Positions 1-5,991 of a stretch of 5,991 bases of DNA are shown in pieces. Under the pieces are notes generated by a model. That model was not told where the DNA came from. It saw nothing but the letters and a program-made list of their open reading frames with translations, and made no database searches. Source of the DNA: a virus. Lineage: Duplodnaviria; Heunggongvirae; Uroviricota; Caudoviricetes. The translations under genes and the position numbers were made by a program. Each line of letters opens with the position of its first letter. Position 1 is the first letter of the stretch. The stretch covers positions 1 to 5,991 of the IMG/VR virus record IMGVR_UViG_2698536454_000005; one strand, given 5' to 3'.

Positions 1-1
1 G

Positions 2-659
<658 letters not shown>

Positions 660-662
660 TCC

Positions 663-995
663 ATGCATCGTATAGACACGAAAACCGCGCAGAAGGATAA
701 GTTCGGCGCGGGTAAGAACGGTTTTACCCGTGGTAACCCCCAGACCGGCACACCTGCCACCGATCTGGATGATGACTACTTTGACATGTTGCAGGAAGAA
801 CTCTGCAGCGTGGTGGAGGCATCCGGTGCCAGCCTGGAGAAGGGGCGGCATGACCAGCTGCTTACCGCGCTTCGTGCGCTGCTGTTAAGCCGCAAGAATC
901 CGTTTGGCGATATCAAATCTGATGGCACGGTGAAAACGGCTCTCGAAAACCTTGGTTTGGGAGAAGATCAGTTCAACACTATTGTTTCAGAATAA
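663..995 (+). CDS. Tail-fibre protein, constant N-terminal part (Sc-like), ending in a 9-codon stub after a crossover-site copy; truncated in this arrangement
   Basis: ATG 663 is preceded by GGAG with 6-nt spacing. The N-terminus [21 protein letters not shown] is what I recall from Mu-like/e14-like fibre N-termini. Codons ENLGLGE (946-966) are encoded by the crossover core that also begins both variable cassettes. After the core the frame runs only DQFNTIVSE then TAA. Confidence 0.75.
940..965 (+). other. Site A: 26-bp invertase crossover site inside the fibre constant-part codons (ctctcgaaaacc tt ggtttgggagaa)
   Basis: Near-palindromic 12+2+12 layout. The right half plus next base is identical to 2510-2522 and to the reverse complement of 5912-5924. 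Central dinucleotide tt at 952-953. Same orientation as site B. Confidence 0.6.
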
Positions 996-1046
996 TCACT
1001 TAACCCCATTTATGTCGGTTGAGGTTATAAGTCACGGAGACCAGAT

Positions 1047-1391
1047 ATGTCCTTAAAGTATGCACATGAAAAATTTCATACTGCAGTACTTACTCTTGCG
1101 GGCCATGGAAGTATTCAAGAACGCTTGATTAATTCGTATGTTTTTAGCCTTGGGCATCTTAAAACAGCCGATGATATTCCAAATGCCTTACAAAGCAGGT
1201 TCGATGAATTATGTAAGGAACTGACTAAGTTTGATGCCACTGGCGATGAGGGGCGAGTTCAAGCAACAGTATCAAAACTTAACGATTTCGAGATCAATAA
1301 ACTGATCGAAGATATTGTCAGTCTTAACGATGATATTTGCATGAAATTGGCTCTGACGGATGAGACTTACCAAGACATACACCAAAGTTAA
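1047..1391 (+). CDS. Hypothetical small acidic protein (114 aa), AT-rich cargo gene of unknown function
   Basis: ATG 1047 preceded by GGAG 1036-1039 with 7-nt spacing. A hand-counted 100-bp sample at 1047-1146 is about 35% GC, against about 55% for 701-800. Hand count gives 19 Asp+Glu versus 11 Lys+Arg. No motif I can assign. Confidence 0.65.
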   Translation: MSLKYAHEKFHTAVLTLAGHGSIQERLINSYVFSLGHLKTADDIPNALQSRFDELCKELTKFDATGDEGRVQATVSKLNDFEINKLIEDIVSLNDDICMKLALTDETYQDIHQS

Positions 1392-1418
1392 TTGATTAAA
1401 TTCAAAAAGTTAACGTTC

Positions 1419-1441
1419 AACCAGCCAGTTTTTGGCTGGTT
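1419..1441. terminator. Putative bidirectional intrinsic terminator between the convergent 114-aa and 70-aa genes
   Basis: Perfect 9-bp stem aaccagcca (1419-1427) / tggctggtt (1433-1441) with a 5-nt loop. T-rich tract follows on the plus strand (1442-1450). On the minus strand it is followed by an A/T-rich tract containing a T5 run (complement of 1403-1407). Confidence 0.5.
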
Positions 1442-1475
1442 TATTGTCTTATAATATTCTTGCTCGAATGATGCA

Positions 1476-1688
1476 CTATTTATGATGTAATCCGGACATC
1501 AGTTCATGGACAAGATTATCTCTTTCATTGTGTTGCAACCGTAAATGCATAGCAAAAAGGTGAGCACTATCCTCATTCCTCTTCAAGCCATGCTGTTCAA
1601 GATACCCGAAAAAACGGCTTCTCTTATCCGCTATTTCCTGAGTCTGACGTGCAACATTTACCAAATTTTCTAGCGTTTTTCTTGGCAT
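1476..1688 (-). CDS. Hypothetical small His-rich protein (70 aa), cargo gene downstream of the invertase on the same strand
   Basis: ATG is the complement of 1686-1688. A perfect AGGAGG Shine-Dalgarno (complement of 1696-1701) lies 7 nt upstream. AT-rich. Seven His, no Cys. No recognisable motif. Confidence 0.65.
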   Translation of the reverse strand: MPRKTLENLVNVARQTQEIADKRSRFFGYLEQHGLKRNEDSAHLFAMHLRLQHNERDNLVHELMSGLHHK

Positions 1689-1886
1689 ACTATTTCCTCC
1701 TGAAATTGTTGTAATTCACTAGGATATTCATTTTAATTTGTATCATTTAGTACCAAAACCGCTATCAATTAACAAAGCCATCGTTGTGGTTTACCTTGCA
1801 GCCGTTTTTTGTCATTGACTCTATGTGAAAATAATGAATCATCATGAGATTGGCTCACACGTTCTTGAATTCGACGAGCTGTGTCT

Positions 1887-2441
1887 TTATTTATCTCCTG
1901 CCGGAAACCTCTGATACAAAGTCGATACGCCAACATCATAGATAATCGCAACTTTCTGGCGCGGAACTCCTGATGCAATTAATCGTCCGGCTTGTGCCCA
2001 TTGTTCTGGTGTAAGTTTGGGACGACGTCCACCAATTCGTCCCTGTGCGCGAGCAGCTTCCAGTCCAGCTTTTGTTCGTTCAACAATCAGTTCTCGTTCC
2101 ATTTCAGCCAGGGCCCCCATCACATGAAAGAAAAAGCGCCCCATTGGGGTACTGGTATCAATTGAATCCGTCAGACTACGAAAGTTGATGCCTCGTTCGC
2201 GCAACTCCTCCACCAGCACGACAAGATGCCGCATACTGCGCCCCAGTCGGTCCAGTTTCCAGACCACCAGCGTATCGCCTGCCGATAATGTCCTGAGCAG
2301 TTTTTTCAGTCCCGGCCTTTCGGACTTTGTACCGCTTATCTTGTCTTCAAAAATCAGCTCGCATCCTGCACAGTTCAGCGCATTACGTTGTAGATCTGTG
2401 TTCTGGTCATTTGTTGACACACGTACATAGCCAATAAGCAT
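1887..2441 (-). CDS. pin: Site-specific serine DNA invertase, Hin/Gin/Cin/Pin family
   Basis: Starting from the MLIGYVRVSTNDQ methionine (complement of 2439-2441) gives 184 aa. Catalytic serine lies in the RVSTNDQ context near the N-terminus. Conserved blocks LVVWKLDRLGRS and GRFFFHVMGALAEMERELI are present, with a C-terminal helix-turn-helix (GVSTLYQRFP). AGGGAG sits 7 nt upstream. The ORF-track start at 2477 adds 12 residues encoded by the inverted repeat and is probably not the real start. Confidence 0.93.
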   Translation of the reverse strand: MLIGYVRVSTNDQNTDLQRNALNCAGCELIFEDKISGTKSERPGLKKLLRTLSAGDTLVVWKLDRLGRSMRHLVVLVEELRERGINFRSLTDSIDTSTPMGRFFFHVMGALAEMERELIVERTKAGLEAARAQGRIGGRRPKLTPEQWAQAGRLIASGVPRQKVAIIYDVGVSTLYQRFPAGDK

Positions 2442-2442
2442 G

Positions 2443-2522
2443 GTAGATCTCCCTGACAAAAGCAGGAATGATGCCATTTGCTCGTTATTTCTGCATTTTC
2501 ATAAACGTTGGTTTGGGAGAAG
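2443..2522. repeat. Left inverted repeat (80 bp) of the invertible segment; contains the invertase RBS and site B
   Basis: 2443-2522 is the exact reverse complement of 5912-5991, compared base by base. Identity ends at 2523/5911. Confidence 0.9.
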
Positions 2523-2962
2523 CGGCAAAACGAAATGTGGGCAACGGGGAAAACCAAATCCCTGATATGTCTTTCTGGACGGTTACTGGTGGCAATGGAA
2601 ATTTTGTGATTCGTCAACCTGACGGGCTAATCATTCAGATGGTTACTGTAAGTATAAGCGGTCCAGTGGCGATGAATGGAATGACTGATAATGCTTATGC
2701 CATTACAGGTTCTAATAAGTCTTATATTGCCACAGCCACATTGCCCTTTGTATTTCCTAATAAGGTGCTGGGCGTTATCCCTCTGGTATCAACAACAGCT
2801 TATGGTGGTGTATCCAGTAATATTACAGGTTCATACGCGACGGCGGTTTGTTCTTTTGCCGCTGTCAGGGGGAATAATACGATTGTGTTCAAAGTCGACA
2901 AACCACTGAATGCAGCCTTTCCTTCAGATACCAGCGTCTCAGCGTTAATCATTGGACGGTAA
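2468..2962 (+). CDS. Tail-fibre C-terminal variable cassette Sv1; the first 18 codons are encoded by the inverted repeat and the cassette is not joined to the constant part in this arrangement
   Basis: The frame is continuous with the GLGE codons of the crossover core and unique sequence starts at 2523. Gly/Thr/Ser/Asn/Val-rich 146-aa tip. Stop TAA 2960-2962 is followed 2 nt later by the ATG of a tail-fibre assembly gene. Confidence 0.65.
   Translation: MMPFARYFCIFINVGLGEAAKRNVGNGENQIPDMSFWTVTGGNGNFVIRQPDGLIIQMVTVSISGPVAMNGMTDNAYAITGSNKSYIATATLPFVFPNKVLGVIPLVSTTAYGGVSSNITGSYATAVCSFAAVRGNNTIVFKVDKPLNAAFPSDTSVSALIIGR
2496..2521 (+). other. Site B: 26-bp crossover site (ttttcataaacg tt ggtttgggagaa)
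   Basis: 12+2+12 layout with central tt at 2508-2509. Resembles hix/gix-type sites as I recall them. Lies at the inner end of the left inverted repeat. Confidence 0.7.
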
Positions 2963-3978
2963 GAATGAACTCAGTATTCTTTTCACCCGCAAGTAAAAGT
3001 TTTTATCTGCAAGAATTGTTTCCAGAATATGAGGATGCGGGAACGCTTCCTGATGATGTTATTGAAATTACCAGAGAAACATATGAGCAATTTCTTGGGC
3101 TGCATCCAGAAGGGAAAGAAATTGGCGCTGACAGTTCAGGACGGCCAATATGGATTAATTCCCCGCCGCCTTCAAAAGAGGATGAGATGCTGGCGGCTGA
3201 AATGAAAAAGATATCTTTGGTTTCAGAAGTCAATACCTACATCAATACCCATCAGTGGCCTGGCAAAGCTGCTATTGGTCGTCTGAAAGGTTACGAGCTG
3301 GAACAATATAATTTATGGCTGGATTATCTGGACGCACTGGAACTGGTTGATACCTCCAGTGCTCCAGATATTGAATGGCCTACGCCTCCGGTAGTTCAGG
3401 CCAGATGACATCCGGCGCGGTGCTGGTATCTGTTGCAGTCACCGCGTCAATGTAATCCAGCACAGCGTTAAGCCGGGTTGTTTCTGCCTGCGTCAGCTTC
3501 CGCCCGGCCTGCAATTTCAGCTGAATCAGACTAATGGAAGCCATAGCAGCATCAATCAGTGACTGGCGCCGTACTTCTGCCGCGTCTACTGCGGCGTTAT
3601 GCTGTGCCTCAGTATCGGTCACCCATTTCTCACCATCCCATTTATCGTATGACGTTAACGGGGCGATAGTGGTTGTATTTTCAGGGTAATCACCCGGAAC
3701 TGTGATTTCTTTTGATTCTCCTGTTTCGGTGCTATAGACGATTTCACCGCGATGGTCTGGCACATATTCCCATGAGTTAAAATCTGCAGAACGGCAAATT
3801 GCATAACCAGCTTTATATGAGCCAGGAGCATCTAAACAGGAACATGCCGGGATACCAACACCCACAGCAAGATATTCAGTTGATGTGGAAATATATTCCC
3901 GTGTTTCACCATCATAATTATAAACGGTAATGTCTCCGGCCTTTGTGGCGATGAGTTCATTATTTAATACAGCTTTAC
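2508..3978. repeat. Tandem direct repeat, copy 1 (1471 bp)
   Basis: Matches 3980-5450 at an offset of 1472. Supported by identical translations of three ORF pairs and by reading the boundary regions and one ~470-nt internal stretch directly. Base 3979 matches neither flank. Confidence 0.85.
2965..3408 (+). CDS. Tail-fibre assembly chaperone (Tfa; Mu U / P2 G family) partnered with Sv1
   Basis: C-terminus DTSSAPDIEWPTPP matches the conserved Tfa C-terminal motif (compare APDVIWPELP in the other Tfa here). Coupled immediately downstream of Sv1. Confidence 0.8.
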   Translation: MNSVFFSPASKSFYLQELFPEYEDAGTLPDDVIEITRETYEQFLGLHPEGKEIGADSSGRPIWINSPPPSKEDEMLAAEMKKISLVSEVNTYINTHQWPGKAAIGRLKGYELEQYNLWLDYLDALELVDTSSAPDIEWPTPPVVQAR

Positions 3979-4000
3979 ATTGGTTTGGGAGAAGCGGCAA
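3380..4000 (-). CDS. Tail-fibre assembly chaperone (Tfa) copy whose native ATG start is replaced by the duplication junction; possibly non-functional
   Basis: Identical to the 4852-5457 product from KAVLNNELIATK onward. The native MIS start is absent and the only in-frame start is TTG at 4000, inside the crossover core. Its 3' end overlaps the convergent Tfa gene by 29 bp (3380-3408). Confidence 0.45.
   Translation of the reverse strand: MPLLPNQCKAVLNNELIATKAGDITVYNYDGETREYISTSTEYLAVGVGIPACSCLDAPGSYKAGYAICRSADFNSWEYVPDHRGEIVYSTETGESKEITVPGDYPENTTTIAPLTSYDKWDGEKWVTDTEAQHNAAVDAAEVRRQSLIDAAMASISLIQLKLQAGRKLTQAETTRLNAVLDYIDAVTATDTSTAPDVIWPELPEA
3968..3993 (+). other. Site C: hybrid junction carrying a crossover core half-site (tacagctttaca tt ggtttgggagaa)
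   Basis: The right half and central tt are identical to sites A and B. The left half is the start region of the Tfa gene and does not resemble a site half. Probably a recombination product junction rather than a functional full site. Confidence 0.5.
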
Positions 4001-4434
4001 AACGAAATGTGGGCAACGGGGAAAACCAAATCCCTGATATGTCTTTCTGGACGGTTACTGGTGGCAATGGAAATTTTGTGATTCGTCAACCTGACGGGCT
4101 AATCATTCAGATGGTTACTGTAAGTATAAGCGGTCCAGTGGCGATGAATGGAATGACTGATAATGCTTATGCCATTACAGGTTCTAATAAGTCTTATATT
4201 GCCACAGCCACATTGCCCTTTGTATTTCCTAATAAGGTGCTGGGCGTTATCCCTCTGGTATCAACAACAGCTTATGGTGGTGTATCCAGTAATATTACAG
4301 GTTCATACGCGACGGCGGTTTGTTCTTTTGCCGCTGTCAGGGGGAATAATACGATTGTGTTCAAAGTCGACAAACCACTGAATGCAGCCTTTCCTTCAGA
4401 TACCAGCGTCTCAGCGTTAATCATTGGACGGTAA
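3985..4434 (+). CDS. Duplicate Sv1 variable cassette with no start codon; expressible only if fused to the constant part at site C
   Basis: Translation identical to Sv1 from GEAAKRNVG onward. The frame is closed upstream by TGA at 3952-3954 and has no ATG. Begins at the crossover core. Confidence 0.5.
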   Translation: MGEAAKRNVGNGENQIPDMSFWTVTGGNGNFVIRQPDGLIIQMVTVSISGPVAMNGMTDNAYAITGSNKSYIATATLPFVFPNKVLGVIPLVSTTAYGGVSSNITGSYATAVCSFAAVRGNNTIVFKVDKPLNAAFPSDTSVSALIIGR

Positions 4435-4436
4435 GA

Positions 4437-4880
4437 ATGAACTCAGTATTCTTTTCACCCGCAAGTAAAAGTTTTTATCTGCAAGAATTGTTTCCAGAAT
4501 ATGAGGATGCGGGAACGCTTCCTGATGATGTTATTGAAATTACCAGAGAAACATATGAGCAATTTCTTGGGCTGCATCCAGAAGGGAAAGAAATTGGCGC
4601 TGACAGTTCAGGACGGCCAATATGGATTAATTCCCCGCCGCCTTCAAAAGAGGATGAGATGCTGGCGGCTGAAATGAAAAAGATATCTTTGGTTTCAGAA
4701 GTCAATACCTACATCAATACCCATCAGTGGCCTGGCAAAGCTGCTATTGGTCGTCTGAAAGGTTACGAGCTGGAACAATATAATTTATGGCTGGATTATC
4801 TGGACGCACTGGAACTGGTTGATACCTCCAGTGCTCCAGATATTGAATGGCCTACGCCTCCGGTAGTTCAGGCCAGATGA
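4437..4880 (+). CDS. Tail-fibre assembly chaperone (Tfa), duplicate of 2965-3408
   Basis: Translation identical to the 2965-3408 product. Confidence 0.75.
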   Translation: MNSVFFSPASKSFYLQELFPEYEDAGTLPDDVIEITRETYEQFLGLHPEGKEIGADSSGRPIWINSPPPSKEDEMLAAEMKKISLVSEVNTYINTHQWPGKAAIGRLKGYELEQYNLWLDYLDALELVDTSSAPDIEWPTPPVVQAR

Positions 4881-5457
4881 CATCCGGCGCGGTGCTGGTA
4901 TCTGTTGCAGTCACCGCGTCAATGTAATCCAGCACAGCGTTAAGCCGGGTTGTTTCTGCCTGCGTCAGCTTCCGCCCGGCCTGCAATTTCAGCTGAATCA
5001 GACTAATGGAAGCCATAGCAGCATCAATCAGTGACTGGCGCCGTACTTCTGCCGCGTCTACTGCGGCGTTATGCTGTGCCTCAGTATCGGTCACCCATTT
5101 CTCACCATCCCATTTATCGTATGACGTTAACGGGGCGATAGTGGTTGTATTTTCAGGGTAATCACCCGGAACTGTGATTTCTTTTGATTCTCCTGTTTCG
5201 GTGCTATAGACGATTTCACCGCGATGGTCTGGCACATATTCCCATGAGTTAAAATCTGCAGAACGGCAAATTGCATAACCAGCTTTATATGAGCCAGGAG
5301 CATCTAAACAGGAACATGCCGGGATACCAACACCCACAGCAAGATATTCAGTTGATGTGGAAATATATTCCCGTGTTTCACCATCATAATTATAAACGGT
5401 AATGTCTCCGGCCTTTGTGGCGATGAGTTCATTATTTAATACAGCTTTACTTATCAT
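4852..5457 (-). CDS. Tail-fibre assembly chaperone (Tfa; TfaE / Mu U' type) partnered with Sv2
   Basis: ATG (complement of 5455-5457) overlaps the Sv2 stop in an ATGA arrangement. C-terminus TSTAPDVIWPELPEA carries the conserved Tfa motif. Confidence 0.85.
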   Translation of the reverse strand: MISKAVLNNELIATKAGDITVYNYDGETREYISTSTEYLAVGVGIPACSCLDAPGSYKAGYAICRSADFNSWEYVPDHRGEIVYSTETGESKEITVPGDYPENTTTIAPLTSYDKWDGEKWVTDTEAQHNAAVDAAEVRRQSLIDAAMASISLIQLKLQAGRKLTQAETTRLNAVLDYIDAVTATDTSTAPDVIWPELPEA

Positions 5458-5966
5458 GCAGCCCTCACAATATAATTAAAGGCGATGTTACGGGAGCGGG
5501 TTTCAGATGCTGTGCGAACTGAGCGAGATGCGTCGAATGTCCAGTTATAAGCGCCATAACCCTCAATAATTTCGGCTTCCTTTAGACCTGTAGATAATAC
5601 TTGCCCATGTTGACTAAATGGCCCTGAACTAAGTACGTCTCTAAAAAGCTGGGTACGCCCAAAAGAACCAACAATATTCTGAATTGCATCATTCTGTGCA
5701 GATAATAAGTTACGACCAGAGTCAATCCCGCGCCCATCATCCCAGCCACGAATAAATTCACCGCGTAAATCTGGTAATTTTAATGTTGGGTAAGCCTTTG
5801 CCAGATTTGGGTACTTTTCAGAAGAAAATACTGCTCCGTTACATTTTAGCCACCCCGTTGGCGGAGTGGCGGAAGGCCACGGAACAGGCACACCAACGGG
5901 TAATGCCGAACCTTCTCCCAAACCAACGTTTATGAAAATGCAGAAATAACGAGCAAATGGCATCAT
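5454..5966 (-). CDS. Tail-fibre C-terminal variable cassette Sv2 (receptor-binding tip of the P2 H / Mu S / Stf type); first 18 codons encoded by the inverted repeat
   Basis: Carries conserved tail-fibre tip motifs: PWPSATPPTGWLKCNGA, YPNLAKAYP, LPDLRGEFIRGWDDGRGID and the C-terminal NIAFNYIVRAA. In frame with GLGE of the crossover core. Confidence 0.85.
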   Translation of the reverse strand: MMPFARYFCIFINVGLGEGSALPVGVPVPWPSATPPTGWLKCNGAVFSSEKYPNLAKAYPTLKLPDLRGEFIRGWDDGRGIDSGRNLLSAQNDAIQNIVGSFGRTQLFRDVLSSGPFSQHGQVLSTGLKEAEIIEGYGAYNWTFDASRSVRTASETRSRNIAFNYIVRAA

Positions 5967-5991
5967 TCCTGCTTTTGTCAGGGAGATCTAC
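5912..5991. repeat. Right inverted repeat (80 bp, cut by the window end)
   Basis: Exact reverse complement of 2443-2522. May extend beyond position 5991. Confidence 0.9.
5913..5938 (+). other. Site D: 26-bp crossover site (ttctcccaaacc aa cgtttatgaaaa), inverted relative to A, B and C
   Basis: Reverse complement of site B, with central aa at 5925-5926. Confidence 0.7.

What the first reader, a model, noticed from the sequence alone, without database searches (positions are those of the whole stretch)
663..995. No intact tail-fibre gene in this isomer: the constant part ends in a 9-codon stub
The constant part runs through the crossover core and then stops after DQFNTIVSE. Both variable cassettes lack a connected constant part. 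Either this is a captured OFF or scrambled recombination isomer, or the prophage is defective for fibre production, or the module has been repurposed. The stub sequence after site A (967-995) matches nothing else in the window.
Basis: seen in the sequence. Interest (0 to 1): 0.55.

Follow-up and report, generated by a model that had tools for sequence, protein, structure and literature searches.

The report
Truncated fibre gene is a mis-join
The cut-short tail-fibre gene is really in the sequence, but it most likely arose when pieces of an ordinary, well-known invertible (flip-switch) locus in an E. coli prophage remnant were joined wrongly, not from a new "off" state.

Summary
The ORF at 663-995 exists as described. 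It has 101 codons of the StfP-type constant part, then DQFNTIVSE and a stop. The locus is the known e14-type PinE/P-segment switch: PinE is 98% and the constant part 100/101 identical to E. coli K-12.

The stub is the in-frame last nine codons of a neighbouring 343-aa gene, which normally lies beyond pin on the other strand.

Removing one 3,028-bp block from the window leaves exactly the ordinary locus of strain PS1Thumoskin9, with an intact 247-aa fibre gene. The block is 'a', then 3,011 nt copied from the other orientation isomer, then 'a', then a second copy of the 15-nt site core.

- Neither new join lies at the TT crossover, so this is not a Pin isomer.
- The block's outer limits (966 and 3980) are exactly where short-read contigs of this locus end when a culture holds both orientations.
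- Both joins carry one orphan 'a'.
- Neither join occurs in any collection searched.

Best reading (about 0.6): three assembly pieces were abutted, and the real locus has an intact fibre gene. A real duplicative rearrangement is the main rival (about 0.25). Interest is low.

The parts
1..95 (-). End of an IS3-family element. The first 9 codons of its transposase lie at 27..1. It truncates the prophage just upstream of ymfQ.
   Evidence: the IS3 CDS reaches L001 6027, which is window 27; genomes without the IS match only from window 96.
87..659 (+). ymfQ (Mu Gp48-like baseplate or tail protein)
   Evidence: RefSeq annotation of the identical sequence. Pfam PF10076, E = 8.7e-27.
663..995 (+). 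The ORF of the finding. It has the StfP-type constant part Sc (663-965, 101 codons), then a 9-codon stub (966-992) and a stop (993-995).
   Evidence: Sc is 100/101 identical to K-12 StfP residues 1-101. No Pfam hit.
940..965 (+). Crossover site A, intact: CTCTCGAAAACC TT GGTTTGGGAGAA. The core is at 952-953 and the shared 15-mer at 952-966.
   Evidence: Same sequence as the e14 site in K-12 and as published (PMC12529663).
967..967 (.). Orphan base 'a' at join J1. Both parental sequences have c or g here.
968..3978 (+). Interposed 3,011-nt piece, 100% identical to NZ_CP189657 (L002 6004-9014). It is contiguous only in the other orientation isomer, and it is inverted relative to ymfQ.
968..995 (+). 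Last 28 nt, including the stop, of the 343-aa ORF WP_021530618.1. This is the source of the stub.
1047..1391 (+). orf114 (WP_000054185.1), function unknown. It normally lies just downstream of the 343-aa ORF.
   Evidence: No Pfam or PADLOC hit. A terminator-like hairpin follows at 1419-1441.
1476..1688 (-). orf70 (WP_001137529.1), function unknown.
1887..2441 (-). pinE serine invertase, intact, 184 aa.
   Evidence: Pfam Resolvase and HTH_7 domains. 98% identical to K-12 PinE.
2496..2521 (+). Crossover site B: TTTTCATAAACG TT GGTTTGGGAGAA. It has the same orientation as site A.
2468..2962 (+). StfE-type ORF: the pin-proximal leader MMPFARYFCIFINVGLGE followed by variable part Sv1 (copy 1).
   Evidence: Annotated as WP_001115559.1 in L002.
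2965..3408 (+). Tail-fibre assembly gene U1 (copy 1).
   Evidence: Pfam Caudo_TAP, E = 6.4e-27.
3380..3978 (-). tfaE copy 1. It lacks its first two codons and one further base.
3979..3979 (.). Orphan base 'a' at join J2. The parental sequences have t, c or g here.
   Evidence: In 18 related loci the base before TT is always c or g.
3980..3994 (+). Site C: only the core and the right half-site. The left half is tfaE sequence and matches the site consensus at 5 of 12 positions, which is chance level.
3995..4434 (+). Variable part Sv1 (copy 2).
   Evidence: Gp53-like_C in the fused 247-aa protein.
4437..4880 (+). Tail-fibre assembly gene U1 (copy 2).
4852..5457 (-). tfaE, full length.
   Evidence: Pfam Caudo_TAP, E = 6e-32.
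5454..5966 (-). StfE-type ORF: the same 18-aa leader followed by variable part S'v (Collar domain).
   Evidence: The Collar domain is seen in the fused 253-aa protein.
5913..5938 (-). Crossover site D, the only site inverted relative to A, B and C.
5927..5991 (+). Second, inverted copy of the pin upstream region, cut by the window end 2 nt before where the pin ATG would start. It is part of the 80-nt inverted repeat 2443-2522 / 5912-5991.

Best explanation
The 110-aa ORF is a join artefact at an ordinary e14-type PinE invertible tail-fibre locus.

**Shown**
- The window equals the normal locus of a 100%-identical relative: IS3, ymfQ, Sc fused to Sv1 (247 aa), U1, tfaE, S'v, then the pin upstream region.
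- One 3,028-bp block is interposed. It consists of 'a', then 3,011 nt, then 'a', then a second copy of the 15-nt site core TTGGTTTGGGAGAAG.
- The 3,011 nt are copied from the opposite orientation isomer. They comprise the end of the 343-aa ORF, orf114, orf70, pinE, a site, Sv1, U1 and 5'-truncated tfaE.
- The stub is the last nine codons of the 343-aa ORF, which happen to be in frame.
- The two host-side limits of the block (966 and 3980) are the exact bases where de Bruijn-graph contigs of this locus end, because cultures contain both orientations and reads diverge just outside the shared 15-mer.

**Inferred**
- The window is three assembly pieces abutted, each join marked by a one-base placeholder: 1-966 | a | 968-3978 | a | 3980-5991.
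- In the cells, Sc is fused to Sv1 or to S'v as usual, and Pin flips between the two.
- I cannot name the software step that made the joins.
For: 1. Deleting 3,028 bp restores L001 6001-8963 exactly. The middle piece is 3,011/3,011 identical to L002 6004-9014.
2. Five independent Logan contigs and the NCBI KTE64 scaffold end at ...TTGGTTTGGGAGAAG|, which is window position 966. In KTE64 the contig after the gap starts exactly at the 15-mer.
3. More than 100 database proteins are 'partial' copies of Sc that stop at or shortly after GLGE. One 101-aa cluster has 609 members.
4. The invertible segment alone appears as 1.92-kb 'circular plasmid' records, so assemblers do mishandle this locus.
5. 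The window holds pin:Sv1 (one orientation) and S'v:pin (the other) together. That needs DNA from both isomers. About 30% of a wild-type K-12 culture is in the inverted state (PMC12529663).
6. Both non-homologous joins carry one orphan 'a'. No natural site in 18 related loci has that base there.
7. All duplicated parts are 100% identical.
8. Neither join occurs in 5,426 complete E. coli genomes, the GTDB species representatives, JGI metagenomes or IMG/VR. No phage or plasmid record holds 80% or more of the window. The 110-aa and 206-aa products are not on record.
9. Neither join is at the TT core, where serine invertases cut (2-nt 3' overhangs, PMC6007550).
Against: - The outer ends of the middle piece are not known contig-break points. 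One is at 968, inside the tail of the 343-aa ORF. The other is at 3978, in tfaE codon 3.
- No partial tfaE starting at codon 4 is on record.
- Other tfaE copies I fetched are only about 85% identical there.
- No local repeat sits at those ends.
- The window shows 'a', not 'n', at the joins.
- A plain de Bruijn assembler does not normally emit the same 1,471 nt twice.
- I have no reads and do not know the source record.
Confidence: 0.62

Rival explanations
1. The rearrangement is real and happened in the cell. A 3,011-bp copy of the adjacent DNA, running from pin to the end of the 343-aa ORF plus part of the invertible segment, was inserted in inverted orientation at site A. Two template switches at a Pin-bound or Pin-cut site could do this. 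The result is an OFF arrangement with two pin copies, three full sites and a half-site.
For: - The middle piece is the reverse complement of a stretch that lies directly downstream in the other isomer, as an inverted-duplication event would give.
- Each join can be read as 2 nt of microhomology (AG, AC) followed by one changed base.
- Site A stays intact and pinE is intact. In silico, A x D inversion gives the 253-aa fibre, and A x B or A x C deletion gives the 247-aa fibre, each identical to the relatives' proteins.
- The outer ends of the piece are not typical contig ends.
Against: - Both host-side breakpoints fall exactly on the limits of the 15-mer, not on the TT core. That is expected for assembly unitigs and is very unlikely for a random or Pin-cut break.
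- The same orphan base sits at both joins.
- The configuration needs donor and recipient in opposite orientations, or an extra inversion through the crippled site C (5/12 left half).
- It is seen in no other genome.
Confidence: 0.25
2. A Pin-made isomer. Site A recombined with a secondary (quasi) site near the end of the 343-aa ORF, giving a natural OFF phase of the switch.
For: - The stub follows a complete crossover site.
- Invertase sites do occur outside fibre genes. In P2/186-like prophages the same site lies in the first codons of a small regulator gene.
Against: - Exchange at the TT core would leave the donor's own sequence directly after TT. Here 13 nt of the genuine right half-site follow the core before the donor starts.
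- The donor context ...GCTGTTTCTATAGG|TCAG has no site resemblance.
- Mismatched cores do not give recombinants (PMC6007550).
- All 18 related modules have exactly two sites.
Confidence: 0.05
3. The 110-aa protein is a complete, functional or repurposed product, for example a fibre stub or a phage-defence factor.
For: Proteins encoded in the e14 P segment can act in phage defence: StfE2 blocks T2 adsorption (PMC12529663). The ORF keeps its native start and ribosome-binding context.
Against: - None of 625 homologues carries the stub.
- The exact protein is not on record.
- The nine residues are simply the C-terminus of an unrelated ORF.
- All fibre domains (Gp53-like_C, Collar) lie in the missing part.
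Confidence: 0.03

Closest known systems
e14 P segment with PinE (stfP-tfaP / tfaE-stfE) of E. coli K-12
   Same: - PinE is 98% identical.
- The constant part is 100/101 identical to StfP residues 1-101.
- The crossover sequence TTGGTTTGGGAGAAG is identical (PMC12529663).
- The gene order is the same: ymfQ, Sc:Sv, tfa, tfaE, S'v, pin.
- The same pin-proximal leader gives StfE-type ORFs.
   Different: - The module sits in an IS3-truncated, Mu-like prophage remnant next to ssrA, not at icd.
- The genes beyond pin are the 343-aa ORF, orf114 and orf70 instead of mcrA.
- The cassettes differ.
- In this window the constant part is not fused to a cassette.
Mu G segment/Gin and P1 C segment/Cin host-range switches (Din family of serine invertases). 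The comparison with Mu rests on my own knowledge.
   Same: - A constant 5' part of the fibre gene ends in a 26-bp site.
- Two opposed variable 3' parts each have their own assembly gene.
- A Resolvase/HTH_7 invertase lies next to the segment.
- A P1-like plasmid carries the same site and the same Sv1-type cassette.
   Different: In those phages the constant part is about 1,000 aa long and both orientations give a working fibre on a live virion. Here the constant part is 101 aa and the prophage is a remnant.
Min multiple-inversion system of plasmid p15B (six sites, many isomers). This comparison rests on my own knowledge.
   Same: More than two crossover sites lie in one array, so some arrangements could leave cassettes unfused.
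   Different: The extra sites here come from an exact duplication of one cassette block, not from distinct cassettes. One of them is only a half-site. All related loci have two sites.
Assembly breaks and mis-joins at invertible segments
   Same: - Contigs end exactly at the edge of the shared 15-mer.
- Hundreds of 'partial' Sc proteins are on record.
- The segment has been deposited as 1.92-kb 'circular plasmids'.
   Different: I found no other record in which the pieces were abutted in this particular order.

Membership tests
Din-family (Gin/Cin/Pin/Hin) invertible tail-fibre switch | A serine invertase with a Resolvase catalytic domain and an HTH_7 DNA-binding domain lies next to the segment. 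| tested here: met
   PF00239 E = 1.5e-51 and PF02796 E = 3.6e-13. 98% identical to K-12 PinE.
Din-family (Gin/Cin/Pin/Hin) invertible tail-fibre switch | Two 26-bp imperfect-dyad crossover sites with the same central dinucleotide lie in inverted orientation around the segment. | tested here: met
   Sites A or B versus D share the TT core, and their left halves match the reverse complement of the right half at 8-9 of 12 positions. The window also has extra direct copies (B, C), which none of the 18 related loci has.
Din-family (Gin/Cin/Pin/Hin) invertible tail-fibre switch | The constant 5' part of the fibre gene is fused in frame, at a site, to one of two alternative 3' parts. | tested here: not met
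   In the window Sc is followed by 9 foreign codons. The feature is met in the 100%-identical relatives, with 247-aa and 253-aa fusions. It is restored by in-silico A x D, A x B or A x C recombination.
Din-family (Gin/Cin/Pin/Hin) invertible tail-fibre switch | Each variable part is followed by its own tail-fibre assembly gene. | tested here: met
   Caudo_TAP in U1 (E = 6.4e-27) and tfaE (E = 6e-32).
Din-family (Gin/Cin/Pin/Hin) invertible tail-fibre switch | A Fis-dependent recombinational enhancer lies in the 5' part of the invertase gene. | not tested
   It is inferred only from the 98% protein identity of pinE to K-12 pinE. No enhancer model was run.
Product of canonical Pin strand exchange (a true isomer) | New joins lie at the central dinucleotide, and each new site is made of two half-sites. 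| tested here: not met
   J1 lies 13 nt to the right of the core. At J2 the left half is tfaE sequence (5/12 match) with an extra base before TT.
Multiple-inversion systems (p15B Min type) | Three or more functional sites separate distinct cassettes. | tested here: not met
   The two Sv1 blocks are identical over 1,471 nt, and site C lacks a left half-site.
Assembly or scaffold mis-join | Breakpoints coincide with contig ends seen in independent assemblies of the same locus. | tested here: inconclusive
   This is met for the two host-side limits, 966 and 3980. It is not shown for the outer ends of the middle piece, 968 and 3978.
Assembly or scaffold mis-join | No reads span the join. | not testable with these tools
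   No reads and no source record are available.

The most novel reading that the evidence does not exclude
The joins are real. An aberrant event at a Pin-bound crossover site copied 3 kb of neighbouring DNA, including pin itself, into the site. This would create a three-state switch: OFF as seen here, and ON with either fibre after one Pin reaction. It would have two invertase copies and would encode both StfE-type proteins at once. That could matter, because an e14 StfE-type chimera has been reported to block phage T2 adsorption.
Probability: 0.12. Interest if true: 0.45.

Novelty: not a real feature. Interest (0 to 1): 0.15.

Why it matters
It matters little for biology. The underlying system is the long-known e14/PinE fibre switch in a dead prophage.

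The practical lesson is for genome scans. Invertible segments are sequenced from mixed populations, so contigs break at the edge of the shared crossover core. Pieces joined across such breaks can look like 'scrambled isomers', duplicated cassettes or truncated genes.

If the joins turned out to be real, they would give a rare view of a non-canonical rearrangement at a serine-invertase site.

Tried and rejected
- **Quasi-site recombination by Pin.** Rejected. The donor contexts at both ends of the middle piece do not resemble a half-site, and the joins are off the TT core.
- **Integration of a Pin-excised circle at site A.** It reproduces the layout, but it requires the odd join to exist already, so it explains nothing.
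- **A parent strain with 'AGATCAG' at the end of the 343-aa ORF, or a natural site in front of tfaE.** None was found. All hits have 'AGGTCAG'. The P1-like plasmid's 'TTACC TTGG' only resembles J2 by chance.
- **Locating the source contig.** I tried exact DNA patterns, exact proteins and whole-window searches of phages and plasmids. Nothing was found.
- **Restriction-site, TA-cloning or A-tailing chimeras as the origin of the orphan bases.** None of these accounts for the coincidence with the 15-mer limits.
- **Local repeats at the outer ends of the middle piece that could cause graph branches.** None was found.
- **Function of the neighbouring genes.** Pfam and PADLOC gave no hit for the 343-aa ORF, orf114 or orf70.

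Full report
**1. What is in the window**

The window is an e14-type, PinE-driven invertible tail-fibre module of E. coli. In order it holds:

| Coordinates | Strand | Feature |
|---|---|---|
| 1 to about 95 | - | End of an IS3 element |
| 87-659 | + | ymfQ |
| 663-995 | + | ORF of the finding |
| 1047-1391 | + | orf114 |
| 1476-1688 | - | orf70 |
| 1887-2441 | - | pinE |
| 2468-2962 | + | Site B, then Sv1 |
| 2965-3408 | + | Assembly gene U1 |
| 3380-3978 | - | 5'-truncated tfaE |
| from 3980 | + | Site C |
| to 4880 | + | Sv1 and U1 again |
| 4852-5457 | - | Full tfaE |
| 5454-5966 | - | S'v |
| 5913-5938 | - | Site D |
| 5927-5991 | + | Inverted second copy of the pin upstream region |

PinE is 98% identical to K-12 PinE. 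The constant part is 100/101 identical to StfP residues 1-101. The crossover sequence is the published e14 one (PMC12529663).

**2. Check of the observation**

The ORF is exactly as described. It has 101 constant codons ending ...GLGE across site A, then DQFNTIVSE and a stop. The 29 nt after the site are unique in the window. No cassette is joined to the constant part.

One correction is needed. There are three cassette copies, not two, because Sv1-U1-tfaE(5') lies in an exact 1,471-nt repeat: 2508-3978 = 3980-5450.

**3. Where the stub comes from**

Two complete genomes are 100% identical to every part of the window but have the ordinary layout.

- NZ_CP180607 (L001): ymfQ, Sc:Sv1 (247 aa), U1, tfaE, S'v, pinE, orf70, orf114, then a 343-aa ORF.
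- NZ_CP189657 (L002): the other orientation, with Sc:S'v (253 aa).

The stub is the last nine codons of that 343-aa ORF, in its own frame and with its own stop. In 10 of 10 independent contexts the 343-aa ORF directly precedes orf114 at the ssrA-proximal end of the prophage.

**4. Exact anatomy of the rearrangement**

A BLAST and string comparison shows that deleting one 3,028-bp block from the window gives L001 6001-8963 without a single difference.

The block has four parts:
- 'a' at 967;
- 3,011 nt at 968-3978, identical to L002 6004-9014;
- 'a' at 3979;
- a second copy of the 15-mer TTGGTTTGGGAGAAG.

The 3,011 nt are contiguous only in the opposite orientation isomer, and they are inverted relative to ymfQ. 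So the window contains a pin:Sv1 joint and an S'v:pin joint at once. One ordinary locus cannot hold both.

**5. Not a Pin isomer**

Serine invertases cut at the central dinucleotide, leaving 2-nt overhangs. Sites with different central base pairs do not give recombinants (PMC6007550).

- J1 lies 13 nt to the right of the TT core, just outside the 26-bp site.
- At J2 the whole left half-site is replaced by tfaE sequence, which matches at 5 of 12 positions (chance level). An extra base sits before TT.
- The donor contexts show no resemblance to a site.
- All 18 related loci I collected have exactly two sites. In all of them the base before TT is c or g.

**6. Why I read it as a mis-join**

The two host-side limits of the block are the last base (966) and the first base (3980) of the 15-mer shared by all sites.

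These are the positions where reads from a culture holding both orientations start to disagree. Graph assemblers therefore end their contigs there. Five independent Logan contigs and the KTE64 scaffold end at exactly the base equivalent to 966. The KTE64 contig after the gap starts exactly at the 15-mer.

Other signs that this locus is routinely broken or mis-built:
- More than a hundred 'partial' Sc proteins are in the protein collection, including a 101-aa cluster with 609 members.
- 1.92-kb 'circular plasmids' consist of the invertible segment alone.
- Mixed orientation in cultures is documented, at about 30% inverted in wild-type K-12.

Further points in the same direction:
- Both non-homologous joins carry the same single orphan base.
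- All duplicated parts are identical.
- Neither join, nor the 110-aa or 206-aa fusion product, is found in 5,426 complete E. coli genomes, the GTDB species representatives, JGI metagenomes, IMG/VR or the protein and contig index. No phage or plasmid record holds 80% or more of the window.

A biological event would have to hit both limits of the 15-mer exactly, miss the Pin cleavage point, and add the same base twice.

**7. What speaks against the mis-join reading**

- The outer ends of the middle piece are not positions where I could show contigs to break. One is at 968, inside the tail of the 343-aa ORF. The other is at 3978, in tfaE codon 3.
- The joins show 'a', not 'n'.
- I cannot name the program that would abut the pieces this way.

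A real inverted-duplication event, made by two template switches with 2-nt microhomologies (AG and AC), therefore stays open at about 0.25.

If that event is real, the state is reversible. In silico, A x D inversion gives the 253-aa fibre. A x B or A x C deletion gives the 247-aa fibre. Each product is identical to the relatives' proteins.

**8. Function**

Whichever reading is right, the element is a remnant. IS3 replaces everything upstream of ymfQ in this lineage, whereas other lineages keep Mu-like baseplate genes. No virion fibre is at stake.

The 110-aa product lacks all receptor-binding domains and has no counterpart elsewhere.

**9. Verdict**

The sequence observation is confirmed. Its reading as a captured recombination isomer is not. 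The most likely explanation is a wrong join of assembly pieces at a known switch. Interest is low.

Noticed in passing
window 2508-3978 and 3980-5450: An exact 1,471-nt direct repeat (site core, Sv1, U1, tfaE down to codon 3), with the two copies separated by a single 'a'. It is part of the same interposed block as the stub.
   Followed up: yes
window 2443-2522 and 5912-5991: An 80-nt perfect inverted repeat (pin upstream region plus site), cut off by the window end 2 nt before where a second pin ATG would start. The sequence beyond the window may hold a second, opposed pin copy.
   Followed up: partly
window 2468-2962 (+) and 5454-5966 (-): Two StfE-type ORFs share the 18-aa pin-proximal leader MMPFARYFCIFINVGLGE, one fused to Sv1 and one to S'v. 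In one ordinary locus only one of them can exist at a time. A K-12 chimera of this type (StfE2) is reported to block phage T2 adsorption (PMC12529663).
   Followed up: partly
window 968-1688; L002 5000-6724: The 343-aa ORF, orf114 and orf70 form a conserved block between ssrA and pin at the prophage end. They have no Pfam or PADLOC hit. orf114 is listed in 5,504 blocks of the contig index. Function is unknown, and the block occupies the position that mcrA has in e14.
   Followed up: partly
window 1-95; L001 4850-6095: An IS3-family element sits directly upstream of ymfQ, so this lineage keeps only ymfQ, the fibre switch and pin. Other lineages have Mu-like baseplate genes there (L006, L008, L010-L012, L019).
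   Followed up: yes
plasmid records CP148528.1, NZ_CP148539.1, NZ_CP148540.1 (hits H89-H91): These 1,920-1,923-bp 'circular plasmids' of E. coli consist only of the invertible segment and are 99.6% identical to window 2520-5914. They are probably assembly-graph artefacts rather than replicons.
   Followed up: partly
L017 5996, L021 797, L022 9397: In P2/186-like prophages, one of which (L022) also carries a retron Ec67-family gene, the same crossover site lies in the first codons of a 57-58-aa regulator gene next to the CII-family gene. Sv1 (L017, L022) or S'v (L021) is beside it, no constant fibre part is nearby, and the regulator's N-terminus differs between the two states (LPLLPNQRY... versus MPNLLPNQRY...). 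Whether this is a large Pin-type inversion inside the prophage was not worked out.
   Followed up: partly
L015-L020: The same Sv1 protein (149 aa, exact), U1 and tfaE block occurs in P2-like, Mu-like and other prophages with different constant parts and different S'v partners. The cassette block moves between phage types as a unit.
   Followed up: no
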